A stretch of DNA of 64,000 nt from Acidimicrobiia bacterium UBA5794 (GTDB lineage Bacteria; Actinomycetota; Acidimicrobiia; Spongiisociales; UBA5794), in the NCBI GenBank assembly GCA_002418265.1, contig DIDS01000032.1:76396-140395 (forward strand), given 5' to 3'. Position 1 is the first letter of the stretch. Every line of letters begins with the position of its first letter. The notes under the pieces were generated by a model. It ran no database searches. It saw only the letters and a program-made list of their open reading frames with translations, and had not been told where the DNA came from. The translations under genes were made by a program, and so were the position numbers. Shown in pieces: positions 6,191 through 21,742 of this stretch.

Positions 6191-7039
6191 ATGAACCAAC
6201 CGATCTCATTTCTTTCGGACTTTGGGTACGTCGACGAGTTCGTCGGTGTGGTTCACGGCGTCATCGCACGCATCGCCCCGACGACCAGGGTGATCGACAT
6301 CACACACGGGATCAGACGCGGCGACATCCACGGAGGGGCGATGTCACTCACGCGTGCTGTCCAGTTCATGCCTGACGGTGTGTTCCTCGCCGTTGTTGAT
6401 CCCGGTGTCGGAACTGACCGATTGGCAATCGCGGCGCGGACATCGGTCGGGTACTTCGTTGGACCCGACAACGGCCTGCTTGCACCCGCAGTTGCGATGG
6501 TTGGCGGCGCCGATCTGATTGTCTCTCTCGAGGACGAGCAGTTTCAGCTGCCACGCCAGGGGTCAACCTTTCACGGGAGGGACATCTTCGGGCCAGCTGC
6601 CGCGGTCCTGGCTGCGGGTCAGGCCGAGATCGGTGACCTCGGACCGGCCGTCAACCCGGATGCGATCACCCCGCTTTTGATACCTCTCTCCGAGCCGACC
6701 GGGCGCGGTTCCATCAAAGGTGCGGTTCTGTGGATCGACACCTACGGGAACATCCAGATCAACATCGGACCCGAGGACCTGAACGCCCTTGGCCTGTCAA
6801 AAGGTGATGACGTGTTGGTGAGTGCTGCCATGCACGAGTTCCGCATCACGTGGGGCGAGTCATACGGATCGGTCGAGGAGGGCGAAGCGGTTGTCCACGT
6901 CGACTCGCACGGTCAGATGGCGCTCGGAGTTCGTGGTGGCAGTGCCGAAGAGGATTTCGACCTGGTGGTTGGTGACCCAATCGTCCTCGGACGACCAGAT
7001 GGCGGCAACAGAATCAACCTTGAGATTGTCTCCTCTTAG
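6191..7039 (+). CDS. SAM hydroxide adenosyltransferase / fluorinase-chlorinase-like (DUF62)
   Basis: 282 aa. N-terminal ISFLSDFG, DITHG, VVDPGVG, FHGRDIF blocks typical of the S-adenosyl-L-methionine hydrolase family. Confidence 0.8.
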   Translation: MNQPISFLSDFGYVDEFVGVVHGVIARIAPTTRVIDITHGIRRGDIHGGAMSLTRAVQFMPDGVFLAVVDPGVGTDRLAIAARTSVGYFVGPDNGLLAPAVAMVGGADLIVSLEDEQFQLPRQGSTFHGRDIFGPAAAVLAAGQAEIGDLGPAVNPDAITPLLIPLSEPTGRGSIKGAVLWIDTYGNIQINIGPEDLNALGLSKGDDVLVSAAMHEFRITWGESYGSVEEGEAVVHVDSHGQMALGVRGGSAEEDFDLVVGDPIVLGRPDGGNRINLEIVSS

Positions 7040-8655: not shown

Positions 8656-8910
8656 GTGACCGGCTCCGGCTCGATGCTGCGCTTCTTCACACGTAACGGA
8701 TGTCCGTTGTGCGACAAAGGACTGGCAGTCCTCCAACCAATTGCCGAAGGTGCCGGTTACACAATCGAGATCATCGACATCGATCTCGACCTCGCACTGC
8801 TGGAGCGCTACAACGATCGGGTACCTGTTATCGAAGCCTTGGACGGATCGGTGGTCGATGAAGGAATCATTGCTCCCCGAACCGTCGAGTCCGCGCTCCG
8901 AAATCCATAG
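8656..8910 (+). CDS. glutaredoxin-like small thiol-disulfide protein (DUF836-type)
   Basis: 84 aa. CPLCD redox motif near the N-terminus on a thioredoxin-fold-sized ORF. An alternative start at 8674 (MLRFFTRNGCPLCD) is more typical for the family. Confidence 0.6.
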   Translation: MTGSGSMLRFFTRNGCPLCDKGLAVLQPIAEGAGYTIEIIDIDLDLALLERYNDRVPVIEALDGSVVDEGIIAPRTVESALRNP

Positions 8911-8952: not shown

Positions 8953-10185
8953 TCATCGTCCGGCGTTGACCACTCGTTCGATCGCTGTGTAGACGTGCTC
9001 GGACATCTTGGCTTCCTCGGGATCGAGAAGGTTGGCCATGACCTTGAGCGTCCATTCCATCAGTGGCTTTGACCGGAGACCGACGGTCGTCAGCGTCTTC
9101 ATCACCGTTGGGTTGCCGATGGCCCTGACAAACACCCGAGCGACCCGGTGGTAGTCGCCATACACATCCTCAAGTTCGACCGCATAATCGCTCAACGAAC
9201 CACCGGCCGCGGCCGAAGCGACATGCCTTGCGGCCATCCGGCCGGTCTCGTAGGCATAGTCGATGCCCTCACCATTGAACGGGTTCACCGCACCCGATGC
9301 GTCACCCACGAGTAGCCAATTGCGGCCGACCTTCGGTCCGACCGACAGACTCATGGGGAGTTTTCCTCCGATTGGCTTTGTGTGGGGTGTCAGGGAATCA
9401 ACCTTCCAGTGATCTGGCAGCGCCTCCGAGTAGGCCTCGAGGATGTGACTCGTGTTGACATCCTTCCAACCCTTGAACGTCGATACGAGTCCTGCACCCA
9501 CATTGATCTCACCGTCACCGAGCGGGAACACCCACCCATAGCCCGGCATCGCACGCCCCTTCTTGTCCCTGATGTCGAGTTGGCTTTCGATGAACGGATC
9601 GTCCGAGTTCGGACTCTCATAGTACGCACGGATGGCAAGCCCATAGGGATAGTCCCGTCGACGGCTCGCCCCCAGACTCCGGCCAAACTGGGAGTTCGAA
9701 CCGTCGGCAATGATCACAAATTCGGGATGAACGACACGACTGCCGTCGTCGGTCATCAGGTTCACGCCGGTGACTGCGTTGTTCTCAAGGATGGGTGTCG
9801 CCGTTGTTCCCTGTTCCACCACGGCGCCCTGTGCCGCGGCGAGCCCAGCCACGGTCCCATCAAGATCGGCTCGACGCATGGTTGCTCCCCAGTTTGGGAA
9901 CACCGAATGCTTGGGCCATGTCAGCTCAATCTCAAGATCGCCTGCATAGGACCGCAGACCGTCGATTCGGTGCAGGTCGAGACCGTCGAAATCGAAGCCC
10001 ATGTCGAGCAGTTGGTGTACGGCCCGCGGTGTGAGACCGTCGCCGCAGGCCTTTTCGCGGGGATAGCGCTTTTTCTCCACGAGGTGAACTTCCAGACCGT
10101 TGCGTGCAAGCCAGTACGCAGCCGATGCACCACCTGGGCCGCCCCCGACGACAAGAACAGATGGTGCAGATGGGAGGGAGGTCAT
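8953..10185 (-). CDS. geranylgeranyl reductase family FAD-dependent oxidoreductase (MenJ-like menaquinone reductase)
   Basis: 410 aa. N-terminal FAD fingerprint VLVVGGGPGGASAAYWLARNG, conserved GDGL, GDASGAVNPFNGEGI block. Confidence 0.85.
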   Translation of the reverse strand: MTSLPSAPSVLVVGGGPGGASAAYWLARNGLEVHLVEKKRYPREKACGDGLTPRAVHQLLDMGFDFDGLDLHRIDGLRSYAGDLEIELTWPKHSVFPNWGATMRRADLDGTVAGLAAAQGAVVEQGTTATPILENNAVTGVNLMTDDGSRVVHPEFVIIADGSNSQFGRSLGASRRRDYPYGLAIRAYYESPNSDDPFIESQLDIRDKKGRAMPGYGWVFPLGDGEINVGAGLVSTFKGWKDVNTSHILEAYSEALPDHWKVDSLTPHTKPIGGKLPMSLSVGPKVGRNWLLVGDASGAVNPFNGEGIDYAYETGRMAARHVASAAAGGSLSDYAVELEDVYGDYHRVARVFVRAIGNPTVMKTLTTVGLRSKPLMEWTLKVMANLLDPEEAKMSEHVYTAIERVVNAGR

Positions 10186-10246: not shown

Positions 10247-11704
10247 CTATCCCGCGGCTTCTACCGTGGCACCGTCGGTGGAGTCGGCGCCGTCGTCGGT
10301 GAACCCGCAGTCGGCTTCGGCCTCGGCGAGGTCTTCGCCACCGAATTGGACACGCTCATACAGCGCAACCTCGGCAATCTGGGTTTCGTCGAGTGTCGAA
10401 CCAAACGCCGGCATCAAGCCAAATCCCCCGACGGGTTTCGCGTTGGCTCCGTACGTCGGATCGGGCCAACCACTCGTACCGAGGGTGATCCACTCGATCT
10501 GATCTGCGCACGAGCCTGCCGGGAACGTTGTGAGGATCCCACCATCGGTAAAGGCGGGTCCTGCACCACCGGATCCGTCAGCGCCATGGCAAGCCTGGCA
10601 CTGTGCATAGACGGCGGCACCATTACCAAAGTAATCGGCAGTCGAAGTGCCATAGGCAGATCCATCGCAGTTGACGGCATTGCCCGTGACCGGATTGACG
10701 AGGAGTTGTCCTGATGTTCCACATTGGGGTCCGTTTGGTGAGATCAGGATGTAGGTCACGGCGAGGAGTGGAATGATCAGGAATGCTGCCGTGAGCCAAG
10801 CGGGATATCGACCGATCTTGGTACTCGGTGCCTCGACATCCTCCTCCACAATGTCTCCACCGATTGGTTCGATGATCTCGATTTCGTGGGATGTCGAGGA
10901 TGCGTCAGTGTCGGTGTCGGCAGGTTCAGAATCAGCCGGCTGGGTTGTCTTGACTTGATCGACGGGAGCGGGTTTCGCGGCAGACTCGGTTGACGCGACC
11001 GTTGCGGGATCGATCCCTGCCCACTCGGCGAGGACCGCCTCGAGGGACTCACCGGTCTTTTTGGCCCGTGCCTCAGCTGAACGCTTTGCGAGTGCTGCAG
11101 GCATCCCTTTGGCTTCGGCGACCTTGTCCAACAGCTCATCCATTCCTATCCCGCCGAGCGCCGCAGCGGCTACCGGTGCTGCGGCTGGTGAGGCTGGAGC
11201 CACAGGCTCGGATTCCGCTGCCGGTTGGTCGTCTGTCGCCGGTGCTCGGTCGTCGGGTTCCGGTGGTCGGGCTTCGGTCGTTGCTGCGGCCTGTTGCTTC
11301 AATTCATCAAGATCAACACCAGCCCATCCCGCGAGGACCTCATCGAGCGGTGTCCCTGAATGCTCGGCCCTGGCCCTTCCCGAACTCAGGATCAGCTTGG
11401 GTGGCATCCTCTTGGCATCGGCCGCCAGCTGGATCAAGTAGTCGGTCGTCACTTCACCCGGCACCCCCGATTCATCGGCAGGTTCATCGGCAGGTTCATC
11501 GGCGGGCGACGGAGAGGCTTCAGCAGGAGTCGAAGGCTCAGGTTCTGGCGGGACATCTTCGGCAGATACCTCAACGCCAGCCCACTCGGCCAGCACGGCC
11601 TCAAGCGTCATGCCCTCCTTCTCGGCCCGAGCCTCGGCAGATCGCTTCACGAGTGATGCCGGCATCCCACGAATCTCGGCGACCTGGTTGAGGAGTTCTT
11701 CCAT
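10247..11704 (-). CDS. membrane-anchored class I cytochrome c with three N-terminal cytoplasmic ~45-aa repeats
   Basis: 485 aa. Three copies of a KRSAEARAxKxGxxLEAVLAEWAG-type repeat. PADEPADEPADE acidic linker (12-nt DNA tandem repeat at 11471..11506). Single TM (AWLTAAFLIIPLLAVTYILI). C-terminal haem-binding CQACH domain. Confidence 0.7.
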   Translation of the reverse strand: MEELLNQVAEIRGMPASLVKRSAEARAEKEGMTLEAVLAEWAGVEVSAEDVPPEPEPSTPAEASPSPADEPADEPADESGVPGEVTTDYLIQLAADAKRMPPKLILSSGRARAEHSGTPLDEVLAGWAGVDLDELKQQAAATTEARPPEPDDRAPATDDQPAAESEPVAPASPAAAPVAAAALGGIGMDELLDKVAEAKGMPAALAKRSAEARAKKTGESLEAVLAEWAGIDPATVASTESAAKPAPVDQVKTTQPADSEPADTDTDASSTSHEIEIIEPIGGDIVEEDVEAPSTKIGRYPAWLTAAFLIIPLLAVTYILISPNGPQCGTSGQLLVNPVTGNAVNCDGSAYGTSTADYFGNGAAVYAQCQACHGADGSGGAGPAFTDGGILTTFPAGSCADQIEWITLGTSGWPDPTYGANAKPVGGFGLMPAFGSTLDETQIAEVALYERVQFGGEDLAEAEADCGFTDDGADSTDGATVEAAG

Positions 11705-11708
11705 CGCT

Positions 11709-13694
11709 CTACCTCAGCGTCTCGATGTAGCTGACCAACGCATCCATGTCGGCGTCAGATAGATATGAATACGACGGCATCGTTGACCAATCTCTCGAAA
11801 TCCGTGGATCGTTCAGATGCGCCTTGAGCCATCCAGAGTTGAAACCTTCCGAGCTTGCAACATGCATGACGTCGGGGCCAACTCTGAGGTGGCCGAGGAG
11901 GGCGGGGTTTTCGTGGACATAGTCTCCTGCGATGCTGACCGGTCCGAGCCCCACGTCTGTACCGACCGGTCGAACCGATTGTGTGTGGCATTCGCCGCAA
12001 CCTTCAGAGATGTAGATGTTTCGACCAGCGAGTTCAGTTGAACCGGCCGGGTATATGCGCGCCTCATCACCGAGGATTGTCGGTTCTGTATTCGCCGGAT
12101 CGATTGCGGGGAATGCCCCTGTGAGCAAGGCTGCTGCGATCCACACCGACGCGGCTCCCCACGCCAACCGCTTCCAGCTCGGCGCAATGACATCACCCTC
12201 AAACTCAAGGTCATAATCGATCGCACCGTCGCCGGTGCCGACCGATGTGGCATTGCCTTTCCCAAGCCGGGAGAAGGCGAACACGATCTGGGCTGCCGCA
12301 AACAACAGGAGGGAAACGGCCGTGATCCAAAGGAACGGCTCCATCGAAACTGTCGTGATTTCCCATGCACTCCCGTTGTTGGCGAAGGATCCGCTCGCCG
12401 GTCCGGAGGCCCACGAAAATCCAGCAACGACACCCCCAGCGATGGTTCCGAATGCCACGCCCGTGAGTCCAGCCACTGACCAGCTGAAGTGAAGTGGGCT
12501 ACCGGATCTGCTGCCGCCTCGGATGATCGAGTGGGTGGCGAACAAAGCAAATGAGCCGATACCGAGGACTACAAGGAGGTCCTTTGCTTGGCTGAAGCTC
12601 GTCGATTGAACAATTGCACTCGTGGAACGGAATGTGAGGAGCACGTTGACCATGGTCACAGCGCCGAGAGCCACGAACGCGACGGTTGCGTACCGCAACG
12701 TCGCGCGGTCGGCAATCCGTGTCACAGATCCATTCAGCATCAAACCCAGATCTGTTGCGATGGCCAGCAGCGGTACGAATGCCGTGATCGCCAATCCAGC
12801 ACCAAGAGTCTCATACCAATCGGGTGCCGCGGAGAACATGAGGCCCGTTGCACTCATGGAACCCCAAACCAACGCAAGTGACCAGAACCCGATTGCCCCG
12901 AGCGGGCGTGGAGCGCTCGGGTCCGTCCCTGTGAGCGACGTCGCCGCAAAGTAGATGAGCCCGACGCTTGTGACGATCACAAACAGACCGGTGATGCTCG
13001 CCGATGCAAAAGCCGTTTGGACCGAGCCACCGATTCCGTCCATGGGAGGGACCAGGCTGACCGCACTCGACAAAGCAAGCCACCAAGCGCCAGCGGTCAG
13101 ATACCAGCCGGTTGCCCCGAGTCTGTTCCTCGCAGCCATCGCTGTTGAAGCAATGGAGATCGCGGCGAGGATGAATCCGACGACCGTGATGGCTCGTGCC
13201 CATAATGGGGCTTCGAAGCCAGCGATTCCGGATTGCAGGCCGACGATGATCCCGATCGCGCCACCGAGCGTTCCAACGACGATGAGAAGCAGTGAAGCCG
13301 TTGAAAGTGCTGAACGCTTGATGTCGGTCTGGGTCGACCGCGAGATGGCAAACAGCGATGCACCGAGAAGGCCAGCAATGATCCAGCCATTCATCAAGAG
13401 GGTGCGGCCCGCCGGTGCGAGTCGTCCCGGCGACGTCGCGGCCGATCCGGAGAAAAGATCGGGAAGCACGCCCTGGAGCGCGGCGATGCCTGCCAGGATG
13501 AGTCCGAGGATCAGGAAAGCGGCTGCGACCATCAGGAACCGTTTCGCGGTGACCGAATCGGTCGTCGTCGACTCTCCCGTTGGAGTGTCTATGGTCGGAG
13601 TTTCCGCGGTCACGCTGGGGGCTTCCTCCTGCATACGGTGTGTTGCCCTGCCGACTTTCGGCCGTCGCAACTCTAGCCGTGCGACGGAGGTCAC
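11709..13694 (-). CDS. polytopic membrane protein fused to a C-terminal CcoO-like monohaem cytochrome c domain
   Basis: 661 aa with >=12 predicted TM helices, followed by a domain with the cbb3 CcoO-like signature YISEGCGECHTQSVRP. The membrane domain has almost no histidines, so it is not a catalytic haem-copper oxidase subunit I. Confidence 0.65.
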   Translation of the reverse strand: MTSVARLELRRPKVGRATHRMQEEAPSVTAETPTIDTPTGESTTTDSVTAKRFLMVAAAFLILGLILAGIAALQGVLPDLFSGSAATSPGRLAPAGRTLLMNGWIIAGLLGASLFAISRSTQTDIKRSALSTASLLLIVVGTLGGAIGIIVGLQSGIAGFEAPLWARAITVVGFILAAISIASTAMAARNRLGATGWYLTAGAWWLALSSAVSLVPPMDGIGGSVQTAFASASITGLFVIVTSVGLIYFAATSLTGTDPSAPRPLGAIGFWSLALVWGSMSATGLMFSAAPDWYETLGAGLAITAFVPLLAIATDLGLMLNGSVTRIADRATLRYATVAFVALGAVTMVNVLLTFRSTSAIVQSTSFSQAKDLLVVLGIGSFALFATHSIIRGGSRSGSPLHFSWSVAGLTGVAFGTIAGGVVAGFSWASGPASGSFANNGSAWEITTVSMEPFLWITAVSLLLFAAAQIVFAFSRLGKGNATSVGTGDGAIDYDLEFEGDVIAPSWKRLAWGAASVWIAAALLTGAFPAIDPANTEPTILGDEARIYPAGSTELAGRNIYISEGCGECHTQSVRPVGTDVGLGPVSIAGDYVHENPALLGHLRVGPDVMHVASSEGFNSGWLKAHLNDPRISRDWSTMPSYSYLSDADMDALVSYIETLR

Positions 13695-13809: not shown

Positions 13810-14394
13810 TTGAACGAACGCAGACGACTTGTCATCGGATATCTCGCGATCCTCGTCGGGATCGCTACGACGATCCTTGCTTCCGTGGGTGTACACATGT
13901 CGGAAGCCCCCGAGTTCGATGAATTCGGCAAGGCCCTTTATTCGTTCATGCCACGGGGTTGGGTGATCGTGACGTTCTTCCAATCCGTCGCGCTCTGCGG
14001 TGTCCTTCTGGCGATGGCTGGTGCGACGTTCGGGTTCATCTACAAGCGACCGCTCACCTGGGCGCGAGCGATGCTCGGAGCCGTCCTCTTTTCTGCTTTG
14101 ATGATGATTCTGTTCGCGGTCATCCCGAACCAATTCCTCACTCTCGCGCAGTCTACACTTGAGTGGACTCCGCAGAAGGTCTTCGTGACCATTCCGCCGA
14201 TTCTTGTGCTCAACAACACCGTGGAGATTTCGTACGCTGCTCTGAAGGACATGATCTCGGCGGGTTATGTCACAACGATGCTCATCGTCATAGCAATCGT
14301 CATGTACCAGATCCAAGAGCGGGCGAAAAGAACAGACGTGCCGAAGCCAGCCCCGGTTTCGGACTACGGACGACCAATGCGATTGGAGCGCTGA
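13810..14394 (+). CDS. integral membrane protein, first gene of the b6c-type operon
   Basis: 194 aa with 4-5 predicted TM helices. Stop overlaps the start of the next gene (TGATG). No recognised family. Confidence 0.5.
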   Translation: MNERRRLVIGYLAILVGIATTILASVGVHMSEAPEFDEFGKALYSFMPRGWVIVTFFQSVALCGVLLAMAGATFGFIYKRPLTWARAMLGAVLFSALMMILFAVIPNQFLTLAQSTLEWTPQKVFVTIPPILVLNNTVEISYAALKDMISAGYVTTMLIVIAIVMYQIQERAKRTDVPKPAPVSDYGRPMRLER

Positions 14395-14837
14395 TGGCCA
14401 AAGAAGCCTGGCTCGAAACCCCGCCAATCCGCGATGACTATCAACTTGCCATTGTGGATACGGCATACATGACTGCTGCCGTCAAGCCAAAGCAGTTCAT
14501 TCACATCAATGAATCAGAGTGCATCCTCTGTGCCGGTTGTGTGGACATCTGCCCGTGGAAATGCATCCACTTCCTCACTCCCGACATCGTGACGGAAACG
14601 TTCGGTGTTGAACATCCAAGTGCCAAGGAAGAGAACGGAGCATTGTTCCTGATTGACGACACGGAATGCACACGGTGCAAACTATGCATCGATCGCTGCC
14701 CAACGAACGTGATCACGATCGGAAAGTTCGGCGGGTCCGTTGCGGATCAGGTCAGTGAATACGACTCAGCGCCATGGGAATACGACACGGGTGCCAGAGA
14801 CACCAAGAGCGGTGTCGCGTATGGTGTTCGCTGGTAG
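14394..14837 (+). CDS. 2x[4Fe-4S] ferredoxin
   Basis: 147 aa from the internal ATG overlapping the upstream stop. Two CxxCxxCxxxCP clusters (CILCAGCVDICP, CTRCKLCIDRCP). Confidence 0.7.
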   Translation: MAKEAWLETPPIRDDYQLAIVDTAYMTAAVKPKQFIHINESECILCAGCVDICPWKCIHFLTPDIVTETFGVEHPSAKEENGALFLIDDTECTRCKLCIDRCPTNVITIGKFGGSVADQVSEYDSAPWEYDTGARDTKSGVAYGVRW

Positions 14838-14840
14838 GGA

Positions 14841-15638
14841 TTGAGAAGGAGAAAGACGCACGTGGCAGACGGGAACGGGAAAGGCGGAGTACTCACCGCT
14901 GTGAAGGGGATGGGTACCCATCTTCGCAATTCCCAGGTGTGGAACTCGATCTTTCGGCCCGGCTCTCCCGCGCGAGCAGACAGCACCGATTCTCCGAGGA
15001 ACCGCGCCTACGTGGTGATGAACAATGTGCTGTACCACCTTCACCCGGTGAAGGTGAAGCGTCACGGGTTGAAGGTTTCGTATGTGCTGTGTCTCGGCGG
15101 ATTGAGTTTCTTCCTTTTCATCATCCTCACCGTGACCGGCATCTTCTTGATGTTCTACTACCGACCCACCTCGCCAGCGGCATACTTTGATCTCCAAGCT
15201 CTTGCAACCGACGTTGCATTCGGTCAGCTGGTGCGCAACATGCATCGATGGGGTGCTCACCTCATGGTCATCACCGTGTTCCTCCACATGACGCGCGTGT
15301 TCTATCACGGTGCATACAAACCGCCCCGCGAGTTCAACTGGGTGGTCGGCATCATCCTCCTGCTGTTGACACTTCTCCTGTCGTTCACCGGCTACCTCCT
15401 GCCATGGGATCAGCTTGCATTGTGGGCGGTCACTGTCGGCTCGAACATGGGCGCCTATGCACCGGTTTTCGGTGAGCAAGTGTCCTTCATCCTTGTGGGA
15501 GGGGTGCAGATCACTGCCGACACACTGTTGCGTTTTTATGTCCTCCATGTCCTCTTCCTTCCGTTTGTCATCGTCATCTTCATGGCCGTCCACTTCTGGC
15601 GGGTCCGTAAAGATGGCGGCATATCAGGACCCCTGTAA
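14841..15638 (+). CDS. petB: cytochrome b6-type (short, 4-helix) cytochrome b
   Basis: 265 aa. Colinear with b6 over blocks [31 protein letters not shown] and [15 protein letters not shown], ending in the b6-type ISGPL C-terminus. All four haem-ligating His are in place. ~50-aa N-terminal extension (alternative start at 14910). Confidence 0.85.
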
Positions 15639-15647
15639 GGAGATCGT

Positions 15648-16547
15648 GTGGCACAGCTACCAGAGAATCTCCTGAGGCGTGCAGCCGAGGCGAGAGCAAA
15701 AGCCGAAGGCATCCCAGTCGAGGAGGCGTTGGCTGAGATGAAAGGTGAAGCACCACCGGCTGGCGCCGACGCCGCCGCTCCTTCGGCCGGGGCACCGGCA
15801 CCCGTTGCCGCCTCTGGCGGGCCGGTTCGGGATCTCGACGCAGAATCGTCGAAGTTCGGTGTGCCACGACCGCTCCTCGACCGTGGCATGCGCGCACGAG
15901 CCCGAAAGGACGGAACCGCGGTACCGGCAATGGCGGGCGCGGCTGTAGCCGCTAGCCCTGCCGCCGGCAAAGCCGCTCCTGCTGCCCCTGCTGCGCCAGG
16001 TGGTCCACCTCCCGCTGCAGGTCCTCCTCCAGGGGTGCGTACGCAGCGCCTCCTGACCGTCGTCAAAGCAGGAGCCATCCAAGGAACGACGAAAGAGCCC
16101 CAGGACAAGGTCAACGTGTGGCCACATCTGCTCGCCATCGAGTTTGTCGCACTCTTGGCAATGCTTGCGCTACTCACATTGATGTCTGCATTCATCGACG
16201 CACCACTGCTTGAATTCGCAAACTTCAACCAGCAGCCGAACCCGTCGAAGGCACCGTGGTACTTCCTCGGCCTCCAGGAGTTGCTCGCATACTTCGACCC
16301 TCAGGTCGCAGGCGTCCTGCTACCCACGTTCGGCATGATTGCGTTGATGTTCATTCCCTACGTGGACCGGAACCCATCCGTCCGCCCGTCCGATCGCAAG
16401 CTCGCGTTCTCGATCTTCACGGTCTTTTTCATGGCTGCCTCGATCCTCACCATTTTCGGATCATTCTTCCGAGGACCGGGGTTCAACTTTGTGTTCCCAT
16501 GGCGCGATGGCATATTCTTTGACGACTTAAAGACGTTACTCGAATGA
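15648..16547 (+). CDS. petD: cytochrome b6f subunit IV-like (C-terminal half of split cytochrome b) with repeat-bearing N-terminal extension
   Basis: 299 aa, GTG start preceded by AAGGAG. C-terminal 150 aa carry the PEWY-box equivalent APWYFLGLQELL and three TM helices. N-terminal ~150 aa contain two copies of the AEARAKxxG repeat also seen in the 10247..11704 protein. Confidence 0.8.
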   Translation: MAQLPENLLRRAAEARAKAEGIPVEEALAEMKGEAPPAGADAAAPSAGAPAPVAASGGPVRDLDAESSKFGVPRPLLDRGMRARARKDGTAVPAMAGAAVAASPAAGKAAPAAPAAPGGPPPAAGPPPGVRTQRLLTVVKAGAIQGTTKEPQDKVNVWPHLLAIEFVALLAMLALLTLMSAFIDAPLLEFANFNQQPNPSKAPWYFLGLQELLAYFDPQVAGVLLPTFGMIALMFIPYVDRNPSVRPSDRKLAFSIFTVFFMAASILTIFGSFFRGPGFNFVFPWRDGIFFDDLKTLLE

Positions 16548-17392
16548 CCACGACCACCTTCATCCTCATCCTGATTGGCGCTGGCGTTGTTGCCCTGGCC
16601 GGCATCATTGTTGTCGCTGCGCGCCGATCCGAATCGGAGGGTGCCGCAACCCCAGCCGAGCTGGATCGGAAGGCGGTCAAGGCTGATCGTGCTCGTCGGG
16701 CGAGACTTGCCGAGGCCCAGGCCGAAGGCGGAAACGGTGGTGGCGTTGCGACGATGGTCGCCGCTCCTGCCGAGTTCGACGATGATCCTCCCAAACAGGA
16801 GATCTCCTCCGAGGAATACGGCGTCACCCGTCGCAAGTTCTTCAATCGTGCGCTTACCGCTGTGTTCGGTCTCTTCATGTTGCAGTTTACGCTCGCGAGC
16901 CTTGCGTTCATGTGGCCAAAGCTCAAAGGTGGCTTCGGAACACCCATCAATGCTGGCAAGGTCTCCGATCTCAAGGCTGAGGTCCTCGTTGCTGGTTCTC
17001 TCGTGCCCAAGTTCGTGCCACCAGCCCAGGCGTGGATCGTTCCATTCGAGATGTCGAAACTCAAAGGCTCCTCGTTTGAATCGGTTCCCTTTGTGGTCGC
17101 TGGGGGTGAATCGGACGGTGTCGGTCTCATGGCGCTGTGGCAACGCTGCGTCCACCTTGGGTGTCGGGTTCCTTCATGTGAGTCATCCCAGGGTTTCGAA
17201 TGTCCGTGTCATGGATCCAAATACAACGGTCACGGAGAGTATTCACAGGGACCTGCCCCACGAAATCTCGACCGCTTTGGCGTGTCGGTCAACGACGCTG
17301 GCGAACTGATCGTCGAGACCGGCAACATCGTCCAAACCTCTCGGTCCAAGCACTTCACGATCCTGTATCCCCAAGGGCCCTTCTGTGTTTGA
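16544..17392 (+). CDS. petC: Rieske [2Fe-2S] protein
   Basis: 282 aa. Box I CVHLGC and box II CPCHGS. N-terminal TM plus an internal twin-arginine-like RRKFFNRAL. ATGA start overlaps the upstream stop. Confidence 0.85.
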   Translation: MTTTTFILILIGAGVVALAGIIVVAARRSESEGAATPAELDRKAVKADRARRARLAEAQAEGGNGGGVATMVAAPAEFDDDPPKQEISSEEYGVTRRKFFNRALTAVFGLFMLQFTLASLAFMWPKLKGGFGTPINAGKVSDLKAEVLVAGSLVPKFVPPAQAWIVPFEMSKLKGSSFESVPFVVAGGESDGVGLMALWQRCVHLGCRVPSCESSQGFECPCHGSKYNGHGEYSQGPAPRNLDRFGVSVNDAGELIVETGNIVQTSRSKHFTILYPQGPFCV

Positions 17393-18977
17393 TGGCGCGG
17401 CGGTTCACACACTGAGTTTCGTTTTCGCGACCGAAAGCTCCGAACCGGTCTCAACCGGTGGCGTTGGCATGGGTGCGCTCGTCCTCACATTGGCAGTCAT
17501 CCTCCTGCTCAGTTGGATGGCTTATCTGTATGTCAACACTCGGAGAAAGCGGGCAGCAGCGAATGAGGCTGCGCCGCCCAACCTCGCTCAACCGATATCG
17601 GACGACGAGTTCGAGAACGTGAAGCTGACCCGTGTGCTTCGTGCAGCGCTGTTCGGATCCATCCTCCTTGCGATCGCCATGCCGTGGTATGCCCTCAATG
17701 AGCCTGACCGCCAAGCTGAGGCTGCCGAGATGATTGTTGATGCTGACATCGAGGCCGGGGCACATTGGTACAGCATCAACGGGTTCCAGTGTGTCAACTG
17801 CCATGGACCGTCTGCCGGGGGTGGTGCAGCACCGTTCACGGAGCCTCGTTCTGGTGTCGCCACCAGCTGGAAGGTTCCATCACTCAACGACATCTTTTTT
17901 CGATACACCGATGATGAGGTCAAGCATTGGATCGTCTTTGGACGTGACGGTACACCCATGCCGGCAAACGGTTTGGAGGGTGGCGGTGCCATGACCGTTC
18001 AGGAAGTCGATCAGGTCATGGCATACCTCAAGTCGATCCAGATCACTCAACAGGAAGCCTTCGCACAGGCAGAATCCGCCACCAGCCTCGCATTGGCGGC
18101 AATAGAGGGTGGTGCGACCGCTACCCGGGATCTGATCGCCGCCCAAGAGGCGAAGATCGCGTTGGTCAAAGATGCTGGACGCCAACTTGACATCATCGGT
18201 GGCTTCCCTGATGACATCAAGGATCTGTTCCAAGCTGATGGTTCATGCACTGTCGAATCGGCGGCACTCGTGACGGCTACGTGTGCCAATCCCGCTCCTG
18301 ACGCGGACAGGGATGGGCTGGCAGATGTCGTTGAGGGACCCCTGACGGCGATGGCAAACGCCACGCTTCAAGCCGTGGTGGGAGCCCCGGCGACTGCTCA
18401 GGCGATTTACTCGTTCACGTTTGACCCAACGAATGCCTTCACCAACGAAGATCCTGTTGCGAAGGCGCCTCTGCCCGACCTTGAAGCGGCGAAGGAATTC
18501 CTCAATGCCGTCGAAACAGAGGTGCTACTGCTCGGAGTCACGTTCGACCGTGAAGACGCATTTCTTGCCGATCTGGTTTCGGGACTCGACTTCCTGAACG
18601 CGGCCGCCGAGACCCAACTGTGGGACGTCGACTATGACGCGAAGGCAGTCGAGATGGACGTCACCTTGGAAGAAGCAAAGCAGGCAGCCGGGTTGTTCAA
18701 CGCCTACTGTGCCCGCTGCCACACCGGTGGATACTCTGCAGGTGCGGCATTCGAACAGGGAGCCGGGTCGGGAGCGTGGGGTCCTTCCCTTCTCGACAAC
18801 CGCGCAGTCACCCAGTTTCCCGAGATCCAAGATCACATCAATTTCATCATCGATGGATCTGAGGACGCGAAGAAGTACGGAATCAATGGGCTCGGATCCG
18901 GTCGTATGCCTGCGTTCGGTGAAATCCTGTCGGTGACACAGATTGAGCTCATCGCCAAGTACGAAAGGACATTGTGA
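17385..18977 (+). CDS. large membrane-anchored dihaem cytochrome c
   Basis: 530 aa. N-terminal TM. Two CXXCH sites (CVNCHG at ~aa 130, CARCHTGG at ~aa 445) separated by a ~300-aa insertion. GTG start overlaps the Rieske stop; the true start may be the downstream MGALV (17469). Confidence 0.7.
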   Translation: MFDGAAVHTLSFVFATESSEPVSTGGVGMGALVLTLAVILLLSWMAYLYVNTRRKRAAANEAAPPNLAQPISDDEFENVKLTRVLRAALFGSILLAIAMPWYALNEPDRQAEAAEMIVDADIEAGAHWYSINGFQCVNCHGPSAGGGAAPFTEPRSGVATSWKVPSLNDIFFRYTDDEVKHWIVFGRDGTPMPANGLEGGGAMTVQEVDQVMAYLKSIQITQQEAFAQAESATSLALAAIEGGATATRDLIAAQEAKIALVKDAGRQLDIIGGFPDDIKDLFQADGSCTVESAALVTATCANPAPDADRDGLADVVEGPLTAMANATLQAVVGAPATAQAIYSFTFDPTNAFTNEDPVAKAPLPDLEAAKEFLNAVETEVLLLGVTFDREDAFLADLVSGLDFLNAAAETQLWDVDYDAKAVEMDVTLEEAKQAAGLFNAYCARCHTGGYSAGAAFEQGAGSGAWGPSLLDNRAVTQFPEIQDHINFIIDGSEDAKKYGINGLGSGRMPAFGEILSVTQIELIAKYERTL

Positions 18978-19492
18978 TGCCGAACCCCAAGCGCGACTTC
19001 ATCGATGTCATTCGCAGGGACGAGTCAGGGCTTTCGAAGCTCGAAATGCTCGGTCTGATTGCCTTCATCCTGTCCCTGCTCGCCATGGTCCCGTTCATCA
19101 GAGACTTCACGATCAACCTCGTGGGAACGGTCTTCGATCAATTTGACGAAGAGACGGGGCAGCACAGCGACCTGTCCATTGCAGCACGCGGGATCGTGAT
19201 CGTGGCTGGCGCCGTCCTCGTTTTCATCGGCTCCGGTTGGCTGATTCTTTGGACCGACGTGGGAAAACGCCTTGCCTTCTTGCTCACCGGAGCCGCCACG
19301 TTTGGATGGCTGACCGTCAACGGAATTTTGTTCACCGTGTACGCACCGCGAGGTATCCGACCCGCGAACCTCGAGGGACTCAGTGCCCTCCAGATGCGTC
19401 TCCCGGCCATAGCGATGTCCCTTGGTGCTTTCGTTCTCTTCCTGATGTTCTCCGTAGCCCTCACCCGCTACGAGGCAGATGTGGAGGAATGA
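18974..19492 (+). CDS. small integral membrane protein, last gene of the b6c-type operon
   Basis: 172 aa, four predicted TM helices. Start overlaps the upstream stop (GTGATG). Confidence 0.55.
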   Translation: MMPNPKRDFIDVIRRDESGLSKLEMLGLIAFILSLLAMVPFIRDFTINLVGTVFDQFDEETGQHSDLSIAARGIVIVAGAVLVFIGSGWLILWTDVGKRLAFLLTGAATFGWLTVNGILFTVYAPRGIRPANLEGLSALQMRLPAIAMSLGAFVLFLMFSVALTRYEADVEE

Positions 19493-19524: not shown

Positions 19525-19559
19525 TGAATCGTCCGTGAGCCGATGGCTCACGGACGATT
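19525..19559. terminator. perfect 16-bp-stem hairpin between convergent operons (probable bidirectional terminator)
   Basis: GAATCGTCCGTGAGCC-gat-GGCTCACGGACGATTC, preceded by a second short palindrome GAATCGCC-aa-GGCGATTC at 19491..19508. It lies directly after the stop of the + strand operon and overlaps the last codons of rex. Confidence 0.5.
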
Positions 19560-20168
19560 CAAGTGATACGCCAAGATTCCGAGTTCGGTTGACAGGTCGA
19601 CCCTCCGCACGGAGACGTCCTCGTGGGTCTTCAGTGTTGTTGGTGCCAGGTTGAGGATGGATCTGACGCCAGCCTCGATGAGTCGGTCCGCGGCGCTCTG
19701 GGCAGCGGAAGGGGGAGTGGCGATGATTCCGATCTTGATCGCCTTGGCCTTGACGATCTGGGGGAGACGGTGCAGAGACTCGACGATGAGTCCATCCACC
19801 CGCGTGCCGATCTTGTCCTCGTCCACATCCACGATCGCTTCAATTTCGAAACCCCAGTTCTCGAAGCCACCATAATTCGCGAGCGCAGTTCCGAGATTCC
19901 CGGCACCAATGATCACAACGGGATGGTCGTTGAGCATTCCGAGTGCCTTGCGGATTTGGGCACGCAGCTCGCCGATGTCATAGCCGACTCCCCGGGTGCC
20001 ATGACTCCCGAGGTAGGACAGGTCTTTGCGAACCTGTGCCGCGTTGACACCAGCGACTTCAGCCAACTCCTCGGAGGAGCACCCTGACGCGGTCTCAGCC
20101 ATGTCGGACAAACAGCGGAGGTATCGCGGCAGCCTCGCAACGGTCGCTGATGGGATTCGTGTCGTCAT
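19548..20168 (-). CDS. rex: redox-sensing transcriptional repressor Rex
   Basis: 207 aa from MTTRIPSATVARLPRYLRCL, the winged-helix N-terminus typical of Rex. NAD(H)-binding Rossmann VVIIGAGNLG. The longer ORF to 20252 is probably not used. Confidence 0.8.
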   Translation of the reverse strand: MTTRIPSATVARLPRYLRCLSDMAETASGCSSEELAEVAGVNAAQVRKDLSYLGSHGTRGVGYDIGELRAQIRKALGMLNDHPVVIIGAGNLGTALANYGGFENWGFEIEAIVDVDEDKIGTRVDGLIVESLHRLPQIVKAKAIKIGIIATPPSAAQSAADRLIEAGVRSILNLAPTTLKTHEDVSVRRVDLSTELGILAYHLNRP

Positions 20169-20257
20169 CTGTTTGAGGTTAGGACGGCTTGTTGCTGACG
20201 CTGAATCCAGTTCCGATGATTTCTGGTCGAGCCGGAGCACCAGTATCCTCACACTTC

Positions 20258-20680
20258 ATGGAGTTCGCCGATTACCTACCCATCGCACTGATGTCAATCC
20301 TCGGTATTGGTTTTGCCGGAGTGTCGATATTTCTGTCGAAGAAACTGGCCCCTCACAACCCGACTCCAGAGAAGCTTGCTCCGTACGAATGTGGGATCGT
20401 TCCGCTACAGGATCCTGTCATCCGTTTCCCGGTCAAGTTCTATCTCGTGGCCATGCTGTTTGTGATCTTCGATGTGGAGATCGTCTTCCTGTTCCTGTGG
20501 GCGGTCCGGATGGATCAGTTCGGATGGGTCGGCATTGGGGCTGTCGTCCTGTTCATGTTGATGCTCATCGAAACGCTTGGGTACGTCTGGAAACGTGGTG
20601 CACTCGACTGGAACGTTGCCAGACGCGCAAGAAACCGTCGTGTCGTAGCACCTGTCGCCACGCTCGATGAGGCTGCGTGA
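20258..20680 (+). CDS. nuoA: NADH-quinone oxidoreductase subunit A
   Basis: 140 aa from [11 protein letters not shown]. Three TM helices with conserved PYECG and FDVE blocks. Confidence 0.85.
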
Positions 20681-21165
20681 TGGCCTCTCAATCAACCGCA
20701 CCGGGAATTCTCATGACCACCCTTGAGAAGGGTGTCAACTGGGCACGGACCCAGTCCATGTGGCCCGCGTCGTTCGGACTTGCGTGTTGCGCAATCGAGA
20801 TGATGGGGACCGGTGCGGCCCACAACGACCTGGCACGATTCGGAATGGAGATCTTCCGGGCCTCACCCCGCCAAGCAGATCTCATGATCGTGGCAGGCCG
20901 TGTATCGCAGAAGATGGCTCCCGTTCTCCGACAGGTGTATGACCAGATGGTTGAACCGAAGTGGGTCCTCTCCATGGGTGCGTGCGCCTCGACGGGAGGC
21001 ATGTTCAACAACTATGCGCTCGTACAGGGGGTCGATCAGGTCGTGCCTGTGGACATGTACGTCCCCGGATGCCCGCCGGGCCCCCAGTCCCTCATGCACG
21101 GGATCCTGACCCTCCAGCAAATGATCATGGACGGCAAGATTCAGAATTCCACAGGGGTGCTGTGA
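20677..21165 (+). CDS. nuoB: NADH-quinone oxidoreductase subunit B
   Basis: CCAIEMM, GxCASTGG and PGCPP motifs for the N2 cluster. Start overlaps nuoA stop. Confidence 0.9.
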
Positions 21166-21166
21166 A

Positions 21167-21742
21167 ATGACCGATGCCACATCGACGCCCGCTGATGCCG
21201 CGGGAAACCAAGACGCTGGCACCGAGCAAGAACCGATGTCACCAACCATTGAGAATGCTCTGATCGCAACTGCGTTTGCCGAGGTGGTTGGTGTTGACGA
21301 CGTAACCGAACACAAGTACGCCTCATCCGACACCACATACCATTTTGCCCACGTCGACCCAAGGTCGTGGCTTGACGCCATCGCGGGCGCCAAGGATGCC
21401 GGGTTCGACTTCTTCATTGACCTGTATGCGGTGGATCACTTTTCCCAGGCTCCCCGTTTCGAGGTTGGGATCAATCTTGTGTCAATGGAGATGAACCAGC
21501 GACTCATCATTTCGACAAGAGTCCCCTATGACGAGCCAACGCTCCCATCAGCGACCGGTCTGTTCGTTGGTGCCAACTTCTATGAGCGTGAGGCGTATGA
21601 CCTTTTTGGGATCGGATTCGTCGGACACCCTGACCTCACACGCATTCTCCTCCCAGACGATTGGGAGGGACATCCGCTTCTCAAGGACTATGGAGCAACA
21701 CCGATCCCTGTCGAGTTCAAGGCCGGGAGCGCTGATCTATGA
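21167..21742 (+). CDS. nuoC: NADH-quinone oxidoreductase subunit C
   Basis: 191 aa. NuoC/30 kDa subunit blocks ([19 protein letters not shown]). Confidence 0.85.

What the first reader, a model, noticed from the sequence alone, without database searches (positions are those of the whole stretch)
11010..11704. ~45-aa cytoplasmic repeat shared by two different respiratory proteins
The N-terminal region of the 485-aa cytochrome c carries three tandem copies of a motif with the core ...GMPxxLxKRSAEARAxKxGxxLEAVLAEWAG. They are separated by Pro/Ala/Asp/Glu-rich linkers, including a PADEPADEPADE stretch.

Two recognisable copies of the same motif (RRAAEARAKAEGIPVEEALAEM and RGMRARARKDGTAV) occur in the cytoplasmic N-terminal extension of the subunit IV-like protein (15648..15920), encoded in the divergent operon.

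A shared cytoplasmic module on two membrane complexes suggests a docking/tethering function. It could mediate supercomplex assembly or bind a common soluble partner such as the operon ferredoxin.
Basis: seen in the sequence. Interest (0 to 1): 0.7.

Follow-up and report, generated by a model that had tools for sequence, protein, structure and literature searches.

The report
Unannotated helical module on respiratory subunits
A small, previously unannotated three-helix protein module is strung like beads on flexible acidic tails at the cytoplasmic ends of several different membrane subunits of one conserved respiratory gene cluster in uncultured Acidimicrobiia; it probably serves as a shared docking tag, but what it binds is not known.

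Summary
The 485-aa cytochrome c (10247-11704, -) has three copies of a ~45-aa module (aa 1-45, 87-131, 188-232). The subunit-IV-like protein (15648-16547, +) has two (aa 1-35, 61-98). Similarity far exceeds shuffled controls.

The module has no Pfam, NCBIfam or PDB-sequence relative. AlphaFold2 predicts a confident three-helix bundle (pLDDT 95). The three copies behave as independent beads on disordered, strongly acidic Pro/Ala/Glu linkers.

An exhaustive profile search of 1.84 billion representatives found only 402 clusters. The named ones are almost all Acidimicrobiia. The module always lies N-terminal to the first membrane helix of four host types: PetD-like subunit IV, a CcoP-like cytochrome c, a separate CcoO-like cytochrome c, and rarely a 4-TM protein. 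The genes for these four types belong to one cluster of two divergent operons that recurs in ~80 loci (the rare 4-TM fusion was seen only on a 3.9-kb contig).

In 46 of 49 loci both subunit IV and the CcoP-like protein carry it. Copy number varies from 1 to 7, and modules have been copied between the two genes.

A shared protein-docking or tethering role is the best reading but is inferred only. Ferredoxin as partner is not favoured. Separately, the adjacent "cbb3 oxidase" subunit lacks its catalytic histidines.

The parts
11570..11704 (-). Module copy 1 of the CcoP-like cytochrome c (aa 1-45). W-type three-helix bundle with helices at aa 2-12, 16-30 and 34-42.
   Evidence: HMM domain score 83.6 bits. 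AlphaFold2 pLDDT 95, three helices. Conserved in 92 orthologues.
11447..11569 (-). Linker 1 (aa 46-86). Pro/Glu/Ala-rich, net charge -12, includes PADEPADEPADE.
   Evidence: pLDDT below 50 and no secondary structure. Not conserved. Composition.
11312..11446 (-). Module copy 2 (aa 87-131). A divergent variant (SSGRARAEHSG) followed by a fourth helix at aa 132-145; 'DLDEL' at aa 131-135 is conserved, the rest of that helix only partly.
   Evidence: HMM 81.0 bits. Helices at aa 87-98, 102-116, 120-128 and 132-145. Its own variant sequence is conserved across orthologues.
11144..11311 (-). Linker 2 (aa 132-187). It begins with the extra helix of copy 2 and continues as an Ala/Pro-rich disordered stretch.
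   Evidence: pLDDT 38-47 over aa 154-183. Not conserved.
11009..11143 (-). Module copy 3 (aa 188-232), W-type.
   Evidence: HMM 81.5 bits. 71% identical to copy 1. Helices at aa 188-199, 203-217 and 221-229.
10805..11008 (-). Linker 3 (aa 233-300), acidic (net -13), running up to the membrane anchor.
   Evidence: Composition. Poorly conserved.
10736..10804 (-). Single transmembrane anchor (about aa 301-323). K/R residues lie on the N-terminal side only, which places the modules in the cytoplasm.
   Evidence: Read from the sequence. Conserved in orthologues. The topology is inferred from the external haem c domain.
10247..10735 (-). Extracytoplasmic mono-haem cytochrome c domain (CxxCH at aa 369-373) and stop codon.
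   Evidence: PF13442 27.8 bits and PF00034 23.5 bits. TIGR00782 ccoP scored only 23.4 bits against a cut-off of 179.95.
15648..15752 (+). Module copy 1 of the subunit-IV-like protein (aa 1-35). M-type: it starts at residue 1 and lacks helix 1 (LPENLLRRAAEARAKAEGIPVEEALAEMKG).
   Evidence: HMM 51.5 bits. The same N-terminal form is found in 63 distinct orthologous copies.
15828..15941 (+). Module copy 2 of the subunit-IV-like protein (aa 61-98). Degenerate variant (RDLDAESSKFGVPRPLLDRGMRARARKDGTAVPAMAG).
   Evidence: HMM 55.1 bits. The same variant recurs in orthologues.
16119..16547 (+). PetD-like membrane domain of subunit IV (aa 158-299).
   Evidence: PF00032 34.2 bits against a cut-off of 20.7. 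85-96% identical in the best 120 homologues.
11709..13694 (-). CcoN-like 12-TM protein fused to a CcoO/FixO haem c domain, encoded 4 nt upstream of the module-bearing cytochrome c. Where CcoO is a separate gene in other genomes, it carries one module.
   Evidence: PF02433 84.6 bits. 3mk7_B E=6e-17. Separate CcoO with a module in 13 of 14 loci.
13810..14394 (+). First gene of the divergent operon: a 194-aa membrane protein with no family match.
   Evidence: No match above the curated cut-off. Present in 77 loci.
14394..14837 (+). Operon 2x[4Fe-4S] ferredoxin, soluble and acidic (net -10). It is a candidate partner, but not a favoured one.
   Evidence: Fer4 family hits. Charge. Present in 71 loci.
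14841..15638 (+). Cytochrome b6 with a very basic N-terminal extension (first 75 aa net +11).
   Evidence: PF00033 165.6 bits; NF040969 304 bits. Charge.
16544..17392 (+). Rieske iron-sulfur subunit.
   Evidence: PF00355 36.2 bits.
17385..18977 (+). Di-haem cytochrome c subunit.
   Evidence: PF13442 with two stretches.
18974..19492 (+). 172-aa 4-TM protein with no module here. Homologues elsewhere (P0008, P0022) carry 7 and 3 modules.

Best explanation
The repeat is a genuine, independently folding mini-domain of 35-45 residues. Its signature is hPxxLhxRSAxARAxxxGxxh[ED]xhLAx[WM]xG.

It comes in two forms:
- A three-helix form ('W-type') sits at the N-terminus of the CcoP-like and CcoO-like cytochromes.
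- A form lacking helix 1 ('M-type') begins at residue 1 of subunit IV.

One to seven copies are strung on disordered, acidic Pro/Ala/Glu linkers (median 34 aa). They lie on the cytoplasmic N-terminal tails of membrane subunits encoded by one conserved Acidimicrobiia gene cluster. That cluster combines a b6c-type menaquinol:cytochrome c reductase operon with a divergent CcoN(O)-CcoP-like operon.

Most likely mechanism: the module is a shared protein-protein docking tag. The face of helix 2 carrying the conserved R-S-A-x-A-R-A residues would bind one common cytoplasmic surface belonging to this same assembly. Tails from the b6c side and from the CcoNOP-like side would then be tied together, in assembly or in a stable tethered supercomplex. 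The flexible linkers would give reach, and the copy number would set the valency.

Shown here: existence, fold, disorder of the linkers, purifying selection, cytoplasmic placement (by topology), restriction to these subunits, co-occurrence, and exchange between genes.

Inferred only: that it binds anything, and what it binds.
For: 1. The repeat is real and not compositional (shuffle z-scores; HMM specificity in the window).
2. The fold is confident. One module gives pLDDT 95.1 and three helices. In the 238-aa tail, three separate bundles score pLDDT 92-98 and are separated by linkers with pLDDT below 50.
3. Selection acts on the modules, not the linkers. Modules are as conserved as the haem domain in 92 orthologues. 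The universal core is P15, L18, R21-S22-A23, A25-R26-A27, G31, L38 and W/M41 in every host type. This conserves more than a buried face of helix 2, as expected for a binding surface.
4. Distribution is narrow and specific. There are 402 clusters among 1.84e9 representatives. Every classifiable host is subunit IV, CcoP-like, CcoO-like or memb172-like, and the module is always N-terminal to the first TM helix.
5. The genes for the four host types belong to one syntenic cluster seen in ~80 loci; the memb172-like fusion itself was seen outside those loci, on a 3.9-kb contig. Both subunit IV and the CcoP-like protein carry the module in 46 of 49 loci with complete N-termini. A separate CcoO carries it in 13 of 14.
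6. Modules are interchangeable between hosts. In L055 and L002 a subunit-IV copy is 83-94% identical (core positions) to a CcoP-like copy of the same genome.
7. Copy number changes quickly (1-7). L061 has an exact tandem duplication of module plus linker. This is typical of valency-tuned tether modules.
8. The CcoN-like subunit lacks its catalytic histidines. The two gene sets are therefore more plausibly parts of one electron-transfer assembly than two autonomous enzymes.
Against: No result here demonstrates binding.

AlphaFold2 does not pack the three modules of one chain together (pTM 0.34), so simple homotypic association is not supported.

Copy numbers on the two proteins do not correlate (Spearman -0.03).

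The genome scan was seeded with the subunit-IV form. That subunit IV carries the module is therefore partly by construction; the presence of the module on CcoP-like and CcoO-like proteins is not.

Only the best 150 of the 402 clusters could be inspected. Many of those are gene fragments, so a soluble host among the weaker hits cannot be excluded.

No structure, proteomic data or cultured representative was found in the literature held.
Confidence: 0.38

Rival explanations
1. Fishing line for a soluble redox partner. The modules capture a diffusible cytoplasmic protein and hold it near the n-side of both assemblies. Candidates are the operon 2x[4Fe-4S] ferredoxin, the cluster-associated FAD-dependent oxidoreductase of the geranylgeranyl-reductase type, or another enzyme. 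This would resemble the way the peripheral-subunit-binding domain of E2 holds E1 and E3.
For: The architecture fits: a helical mini-domain between Ala/Pro-rich flexible linkers, with conserved Arg/Lys on one helix. A ferredoxin (71 loci) and the FAD protein (50 loci) are conserved parts of the cluster. The same module on several subunits fits a common ligand.
Against: The tail is extremely acidic (net -39, pI 4.1). The ferredoxin (net -10) and the FAD protein (net -8) are acidic too, so long-range electrostatics oppose capture, although helix 2 is locally basic (+0.3 to +2.5). No natural fusion of the module to a soluble protein was seen among the classifiable hits. There is no homology to the E2 binding domain (hhalign probability 0.3%).
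Confidence: 0.25
2. No specific ligand. The folded beads and polyanionic linkers form a cytoplasmic brush. It could act sterically or electrostatically by spacing the complexes, keeping the n-side face clear, or fixing N-in topology and stabilising subunits during insertion.
For: The linkers are long, disordered and strongly acidic. Copy number is free to vary from 1 to 7 and does not correlate between partners. AlphaFold2 shows no inter-module contacts.
Against: A brush does not need a precisely conserved folded domain. The R-S-A-x-A-R-A residues and the W/M41 position are conserved in every host type and over deep divergence, while the linkers drift freely. Restriction to the subunits of one gene cluster is also not expected for a generic solubility or topology device.
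Confidence: 0.15
3. RNA-binding three-helix domain of the ANTAR kind, for example tethering the cluster's own mRNAs to the membrane for co-translational assembly.
Against: These scores are at the level expected for any small three-helix bundle. All Foldseek E-values exceed 1, de novo designed helical repeats score higher, and identity is 2-15%. The isolated modules match no Pfam family, ANTAR included, even at E<=10. The modules are net acidic and sit in polyanionic tails.
Confidence: 0.03
4. Low-complexity Ala/Arg/Glu similarity with no domain behind it.
For: The region is rich in A, E, P and R.
Against: Shuffled controls almost never reach the observed scores: 0 of 1000 for nine of the ten pairs, and 11 of 1000 for the weakest. 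Conservation is position-specific across hundreds of copies. The fold prediction is confident. Only 402 clusters match in 1.84e9 proteins.
Confidence: 0.01

Closest known systems
Peripheral-subunit-binding domain (PSBD, Pfam PF02817 E3_binding) of 2-oxo-acid dehydrogenase E2 chains
   Same: Both are helical mini-domains of about 35-45 residues set between flexible Ala/Pro-rich linkers. The segments start similarly ('MPxx..R..A.E.G'), and basic residues sit on one helix. In PSBD these residues dock partner enzymes (established knowledge). This is the best analogy for how the module may work.
   Different: Not homologous. hhalign probability is 0.3% and there is no Pfam hit, even at E<=10. This module has three regular helices and lacks the GTGxxGRI loop. 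It occurs in 1-7 copies and sits on cytoplasmic tails of membrane respiratory subunits rather than in a soluble E2 core.
ANTAR RNA-binding domain (Pfam PF03861; NasR 4akk, EutV 6wsh, Rv1626 1sd5, AmiR 1qo0)
   Different: There is no detectable sequence relationship and the Foldseek E-values are not significant. ANTAR sits in soluble response regulators and binds RNA hairpins. This module is acidic, repeated and tethered to the membrane.
Bacterial quinol:cytochrome c reductase - haem-copper oxidase supercomplexes (Rhodobacter capsulatus bc1-cbb3, PMC7876108; actinobacterial bcc-aa3)
   Same: A Rieske/cytochrome b complex is functionally paired with CcoN/O/P-type subunits, and membrane-anchored c-type cytochromes are used.
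   Different: To my knowledge, association in the known supercomplexes runs through transmembrane and periplasmic contacts and tethered cytochrome domains, not through repeated cytoplasmic modules. Here the CcoN homologue lacks the haem b, haem b3 and CuB histidines, so it is not a working cbb3 oxidase.
Multivalent repeat-and-linker scaffolds (CsoS2 N-repeats, CcmM SSUL modules, cohesin-dockerin scaffoldins)
   Same: Small modules are repeated on flexible linkers, and copy number varies through tandem duplication (L061; 1-7 copies). This is the logic of valency-driven assembly.
   Different: The sequences and folds are unrelated. Those systems organise soluble enzymes or extracellular enzymes. 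No partner has been identified here.
Canonical CcoP (TIGR00782; FixP_N PF14715) and PetD/subunit IV N-termini
   Same: The host proteins are recognisable relatives: a cytochrome c domain of the CBB3 type and a PetD membrane domain.
   Different: Canonical CcoP is di-haem with a short N-terminal region, and canonical PetD has a short n-side N-terminus. Neither family model covers the module. The CcoP equivalog scores 23 bits against a cut-off of 180.

Membership tests
Genuine protein repeat/domain (versus compositional similarity) | Pairwise similarity well above shuffled-sequence controls | tested here: met
   z = 3.3-25.4. No shuffle of 1000 reached the observed score for nine of ten pairs.
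Genuine protein repeat/domain (versus compositional similarity) | Position-specific conservation across orthologues, with unconserved linkers | tested here: met
   92-sequence alignment; consensus by host type.
Genuine protein repeat/domain (versus compositional similarity) | Autonomous fold | tested here: met
   AlphaFold2 pLDDT 95.1 and pTM 0.71 for one module. Three separate bundles in the tail. This is a prediction only.
E3_binding / PSBD (PF02817) | Match to the family profile | tested here: not met
   No Pfam hit for the whole proteins at E<=0.1 or for isolated modules at E<=10. hhalign against the B. stearothermophilus PSBD gave probability 0.3%.
E3_binding / PSBD (PF02817) | Binds a peripheral enzyme through conserved basic residues | not testable with these tools
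   Needs complex prediction or a binding assay.
ANTAR (PF03861) | Match to the family profile | tested here: not met
   No Pfam family matched the modules at E<=10.
ANTAR (PF03861) | Three-helix ANTAR fold | tested here: inconclusive
cbb3 oxidase subunit CcoP (TIGR00782) | Equivalog score at or above 179.95, and two haem c domains | tested here: not met
   23.4 bits. A single CxxCH at aa 369-373.
cbb3 oxidase subunit CcoN (TIGR00780 / PF00115) | Six histidine ligands of haem b, haem b3 and CuB | tested here: not met
   Only His 19, 388 and 402 occur in the TM part, and only H402 is conserved in 46 sequences (the window protein plus 45 orthologues). Aligned to 3mk7_A and 8smr_E, 'LRPLHTN', 'WYGHNAVG' and 'GPHHLHY' face 'LAPAGRT', 'AFASASITG' and 'SATGLMF'. 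TIGR00780 scored 31.7 bits against a cut-off of 583.
CcoO / FixO (PF02433) | Family score above the gathering cut-off, plus CxxCH | tested here: met
   84.6 bits against 29.6. 3mk7_B E=6e-17. C566/C569/H570 are conserved.
Cytochrome b6f/b6c subunit IV (PetD, PF00032) | Family score above the gathering cut-off | tested here: met
   34.2 bits against 20.7, over aa 191-272. Sources name the homologues 'menaquinol-cytochrome c reductase cytochrome b subunit'.
Respiratory supercomplex tether (functional class) | Physical association of the two subunit sets mediated by the module | not testable with these tools
   The evidence is genomic only: synteny, co-occurrence and module exchange.

The most novel reading that the evidence does not exclude
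The module is a multivalent cytoplasmic 'velcro'. Through a common binding site it ties a b6c-type menaquinol:cytochrome c reductase to a catalytically dead, CcoN-scaffolded pair of c-type cytochromes. The result would be one megacomplex, or two-dimensional respiratory clusters. That would be a mode of supercomplex organisation based on repeated docking domains on disordered n-side tails, which has not been described for any respiratory chain.
Probability: 0.2. Interest if true: 0.8.

Novelty: new variant of a known kind. Interest (0 to 1): 0.6.

Why it matters
Three points make this worth attention.

**A new domain family.** It is not covered by Pfam, NCBIfam or any solved structure. Yet it is under strong selection in an abundant, uncultured actinobacterial class.

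**An unusual distribution.** One module is shared, exchanged and copy-number-tuned among up to four different membrane subunits of a single respiratory gene cluster. That is a clear genomic pointer to physical coupling on the cytoplasmic side. Known bacterial supercomplexes are not held together there.

**A testable handle.** The system combines a b6c complex with its own ferredoxin and a CcoN homologue without catalytic histidines. Its electron path is unknown. The module gives a short folded peptide that can be used as bait.

If the module turns out to be only a passive spacer, the finding reduces to a clade-specific decoration.

Tried and rejected
- **Known-domain searches.** Pfam and NCBIfam on the whole proteins and Pfam on isolated modules at E<=10 found nothing on the repeat.
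- **PDB sequence search** with the module profile gave no hit better than E=0.38.
- **PSBD homology**, suggested by the 'MP..R..A.E.G' start and the Ala/Pro linkers, was rejected (hhalign probability 0.3%).
- **ANTAR and other three-helix folds** match only generically. The afdb50 fold library was not available.
- **Word-indexed homologue search** with the module profile found only 6 fragments. The exhaustive profile search was needed.
- **Locus search with the five-copy alignment** failed because no stretch was conserved enough. A tighter subunit-IV-type alignment worked.
- **P0069**, a 929-aa hit with 7 stretches, is a wrong-frame translation of a DNA tandem repeat, not a host.
- **Several hosts with no class** are frameshifted long-read contigs or gene fragments. 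The 'GGR + module' ORF in L055 is such an artefact. Subunit-IV homologues of about 215 aa are start-codon miscalls inside copy 2.
- **The cytoplasmic loop of the Rieske protein** ('PAELDRKAVKADRARRARLAEAQAEG') looked like a degenerate copy by eye, but no module HMM detects it.
- **Intramolecular module packing** is not predicted.
- **Copy-number correlation** between the two proteins is absent.
- **Literature searches** for the motif string, for Acidimicrobiia b6c/cbb3 systems and for His-less CcoN found nothing relevant.
Full report
**1. The observation**

The - strand ORF 10247-11704 encodes a 485-aa protein, and its N-terminal 232 residues span the reported interval. It holds three copies of a ~45-residue unit:
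- aa 1-45: MEELLNQVAEIRGMPASLVKRSAEARAEKEGMTLEAVLAEWAGVE
- aa 87-131: TDYLIQLAADAKRMPPKLILSSGRARAEHSGTPLDEVLAGWAGVD
- aa 188-232: MDELLDKVAEAKGMPAALAKRSAEARAKKTGESLEAVLAEWAGID

The + strand ORF 15648-16547 (299 aa) holds two shorter copies at aa 1-35 and 61-98.

An HMM of the five copies finds only these two proteins among the 1188 six-frame ORFs of the window. So does a broader HMM built later from 244 distinct copies. The DNA copies are only 73-76% identical, so the duplications are old.

**2. The host proteins and topology**

The 485-aa protein ends in a single cytochrome c domain (PF13442, PF00034). This domain follows one hydrophobic anchor at about aa 301-323. The protein resembles CcoP only weakly (23 bits against a cut-off of 180). 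A c-type haem domain must lie outside the cell and there is no N-terminal signal peptide, so the 300-residue tail is cytoplasmic. This is an inference from topology.

The 299-aa protein has a PetD/subunit-IV membrane domain (PF00032). In that family the N-terminus lies on the n-side (established knowledge).

The surrounding genes form two divergent operons.

On the - strand:
- A CcoN-like 12-TM protein fused to a true CcoO/FixO haem domain (11709-13694).
- The module-bearing cytochrome c, starting 4 nt downstream.
- A FAD protein of the geranylgeranyl-reductase type (8953-10185).

On the + strand:
- A 194-aa membrane protein.
- A 2x[4Fe-4S] ferredoxin.
- Cytochrome b6.
- Subunit IV.
- Rieske protein.
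- A di-haem cytochrome c.
- A 172-aa 4-TM protein.

Rex and the nuo operon follow.

**3. What the module is**

No Pfam or NCBIfam model touches it. Isolated modules match nothing in Pfam even at E<=10. A module profile finds no PDB sequence better than E=0.38.

AlphaFold2 on one module, using an 11-row alignment, gives a three-helix bundle with helices at aa 2-12, 16-30 and 34-42. Mean pLDDT is 95.1 and pTM is 0.71.

AlphaFold2 was then run on aa 1-238 with 22 orthologues. It gives three separate bundles (pLDDT 92-98), with an extra helix after copy 2. The linkers have pLDDT below 50, and overall pTM is 0.34. These are beads on a string with no predicted packing between modules.

The resemblance to the E2 peripheral-subunit-binding domain is architectural, not homologous (hhalign probability 0.3%). 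That resemblance consists of Ala/Pro linkers, an 'MP..R..A.E.G' start and a basic helix.

**4. Distribution**

A profile of 11 copies was scored against 1.84 billion representative proteins. It found 402 clusters at E<=1e-3, 106 at E<=1e-10 and 19 at E<=1e-30.

Among listed hits of 150 aa or more, the classifiable ones fall into four types:
- 21 subunit IV.
- 17 CcoP-like.
- 2 CcoO-like (one module, a TM helix, then a FixO domain).
- 2 homologues of the 172-aa membrane protein, with 7 and 3 modules.

One further hit was a cytochrome b6/subunit-IV boundary fragment. The rest are fragments, frameshifted genes, or one wrong-frame artefact.

A scan of one genome per species returned 80 loci, nearly all labelled Acidimicrobiia or Actinomycetota MAGs. 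The few contigs with other labels show the same gene order.

Gene order is conserved across these loci: [FAD protein] CcoP-like, CcoN(O) | 194-aa protein, ferredoxin, b6, subunit IV, Rieske, di-haem c, 172-aa protein. In one subclade the FAD protein sits at the other end.

In 46 of 49 loci with N-terminally complete genes, both subunit IV and the CcoP-like protein carry the module. Where CcoO is a separate gene it carries one copy in 13 of 14 loci. The scan was seeded with the subunit-IV form, so the informative result is the presence on the other proteins.

Close orthologues of the window cytochrome have 3 copies (99 of 118) or 4 copies (18 of 118). Overall, copy number ranges from 1 to 7.

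Public sources name the hosts only 'cytochrome c', 'mono/diheme cytochrome c family protein', 'menaquinol-cytochrome c reductase cytochrome b subunit' or 'hypothetical'.

**5. Anatomy and evolution**

There are two forms:
- W-type has three helices and ends ..LAxW.GG. It sits at the N-terminus of CcoP-like and CcoO-like proteins.
- M-type starts at residue 1-3 of subunit IV, lacks helix 1 and ends ..LAEMKGE. The tryptophan presumably packs on helix 1 and is replaced where helix 1 is absent (inference).

The core shared by all host types is P15, L18, R21-S22-A23, A25-R26-A27, G31, L38 and W/M41. Seven of ten consecutive residues on helix 2 are conserved. That is more than a buried stripe requires, so an exposed functional face is likely (inference).

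Modules are as conserved as the haem domain, and the linkers are not. Linkers have a median length of 34 residues. They are Pro/Ala/Glu-rich and acidic, and the whole 295-aa tail has net charge -39.

Modules move between genes and duplicate:
- In L055 and L002, a W-type copy in subunit IV is 83-94% identical (core positions) to a copy in the CcoP-like protein of the same genome.
- L061 shows an exact tandem duplication of module plus linker.

**6. Mechanism**

The evidence shows a folded, selected, cytoplasmic module that is confined to the subunits of one gene cluster and is interchangeable among them. The most economical reading is a shared docking tag. All tails would recognise the same surface, most plausibly on the assembly itself. 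The b6c-type and CcoNOP-like subunits would then be tethered or assembled together.

Binding and partner identity are inferred, not shown.

The variant in which the partner is a soluble protein remains open. The tails, the ferredoxin and the FAD protein are all acidic, which counts weakly against ferredoxin capture. By contrast, the N-terminus of cytochrome b6 is very basic (+11).

A ligand-free spacer role explains the linkers but not the conserved residues. An RNA-binding role rests only on a generic fold match and conflicts with the charge.

**7. Side finding**

The CcoN-like part of the 661-aa protein cannot be a cbb3 catalytic subunit. It has three histidines before the CcoO domain, and only H402 is conserved in 46 sequences (the window protein plus 45 orthologues).

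Aligned to P. stutzeri CcoN and a related structure, the ligand motifs LRPLH, WYGH and GPHHLH face LAPAG, AFAS and SATGLM. The CcoO part is intact (E=6e-17).

The 'oxidase' operon therefore looks like a cofactor-less scaffold carrying two c-type cytochromes. This makes a single combined assembly with the b6c complex more plausible.

**8. Novelty**

Nothing on the motif or on this gene cluster was found in the literature held. The module is a new domain family. The kind of device, a mini-domain on flexible linkers used for docking, is known. Its place on the n-side tails of several respiratory subunits is not.

Interest is moderate to high.

Noticed in passing
window 11709-13694 (-): The CcoN-like 12-TM domain fused to a genuine CcoO/FixO haem domain lacks the canonical histidine ligands of haem b, haem b3 and CuB. 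Only H402 is conserved across 46 sequences (the window protein plus 45 orthologues). It looks like a catalytically dead scaffold rather than a cbb3 oxidase.
   Followed up: partly
window 16544-17392 (+): The Rieske protein has an extra N-terminal hydrophobic helix (aa 5-26). A ~70-aa Arg/Ala/Glu-rich loop follows, and only then a twin-arginine-like 'TRRKFF' motif with the usual anchor. The loop looks module-like by eye, but the module HMMs do not detect it.
   Followed up: partly
window 14841-15638 (+): Cytochrome b6 carries an N-terminal extension of about 60-75 aa that is very basic (net +11, pI 11.7). This contrasts with the polyanionic module tails. It exceeds the cut-off of NCBIfam's ExtP cytochrome b model (304 vs 290 bits).
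   Followed up: no
window 8953-10185 (-); loci L011-L034 and others: A FAD-dependent oxidoreductase of the geranylgeranyl-reductase type is always attached to the cluster. It sits either after the CcoP-like gene or, in one subclade, after the 172-aa membrane protein gene at the opposite end.
   Followed up: partly
window 19548-25093: A Rex-type redox-sensing repressor (CoA_binding + Put_DNA-bind_N) lies directly downstream on the - strand, followed by nuoA-F. Rex adjacency is conserved in 60 loci, so the region is a respiratory island.
   Followed up: partly
window 11267-11311 (-), aa 132-146 of the cytochrome c: Module copy 2 is followed by a fourth helix beginning with the conserved 'DLDEL', which the other copies lack. 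Copy 2 also has its own conserved helix-2 variant (SSGRARAEHSG).
   Followed up: no
L082 2-2524 (+): On a 3.9-kb metagenome contig, a homologue of the 194-aa membrane protein is followed directly by a 618-aa protein with seven modules fused to a homologue of the 172-aa membrane protein. This suggests that the two small membrane proteins work together.
   Followed up: partly
L061 7866-8972 (+); L055 and L002 subunit IV genes: L061 has an exact tandem duplication of module plus linker. L055 and L002 have a W-type module in subunit IV nearly identical to copies in the CcoP-like protein of the same genome. The module array is therefore evolving by duplication and exchange between genes.
   Followed up: yes
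window 8656-8910 (+) and 6191-7039 (+): A glutaredoxin-like DUF836 protein and a SAM hydroxide adenosyltransferase-family protein flank the cluster. The latter is conserved near the cluster in 42 loci.
   Followed up: no
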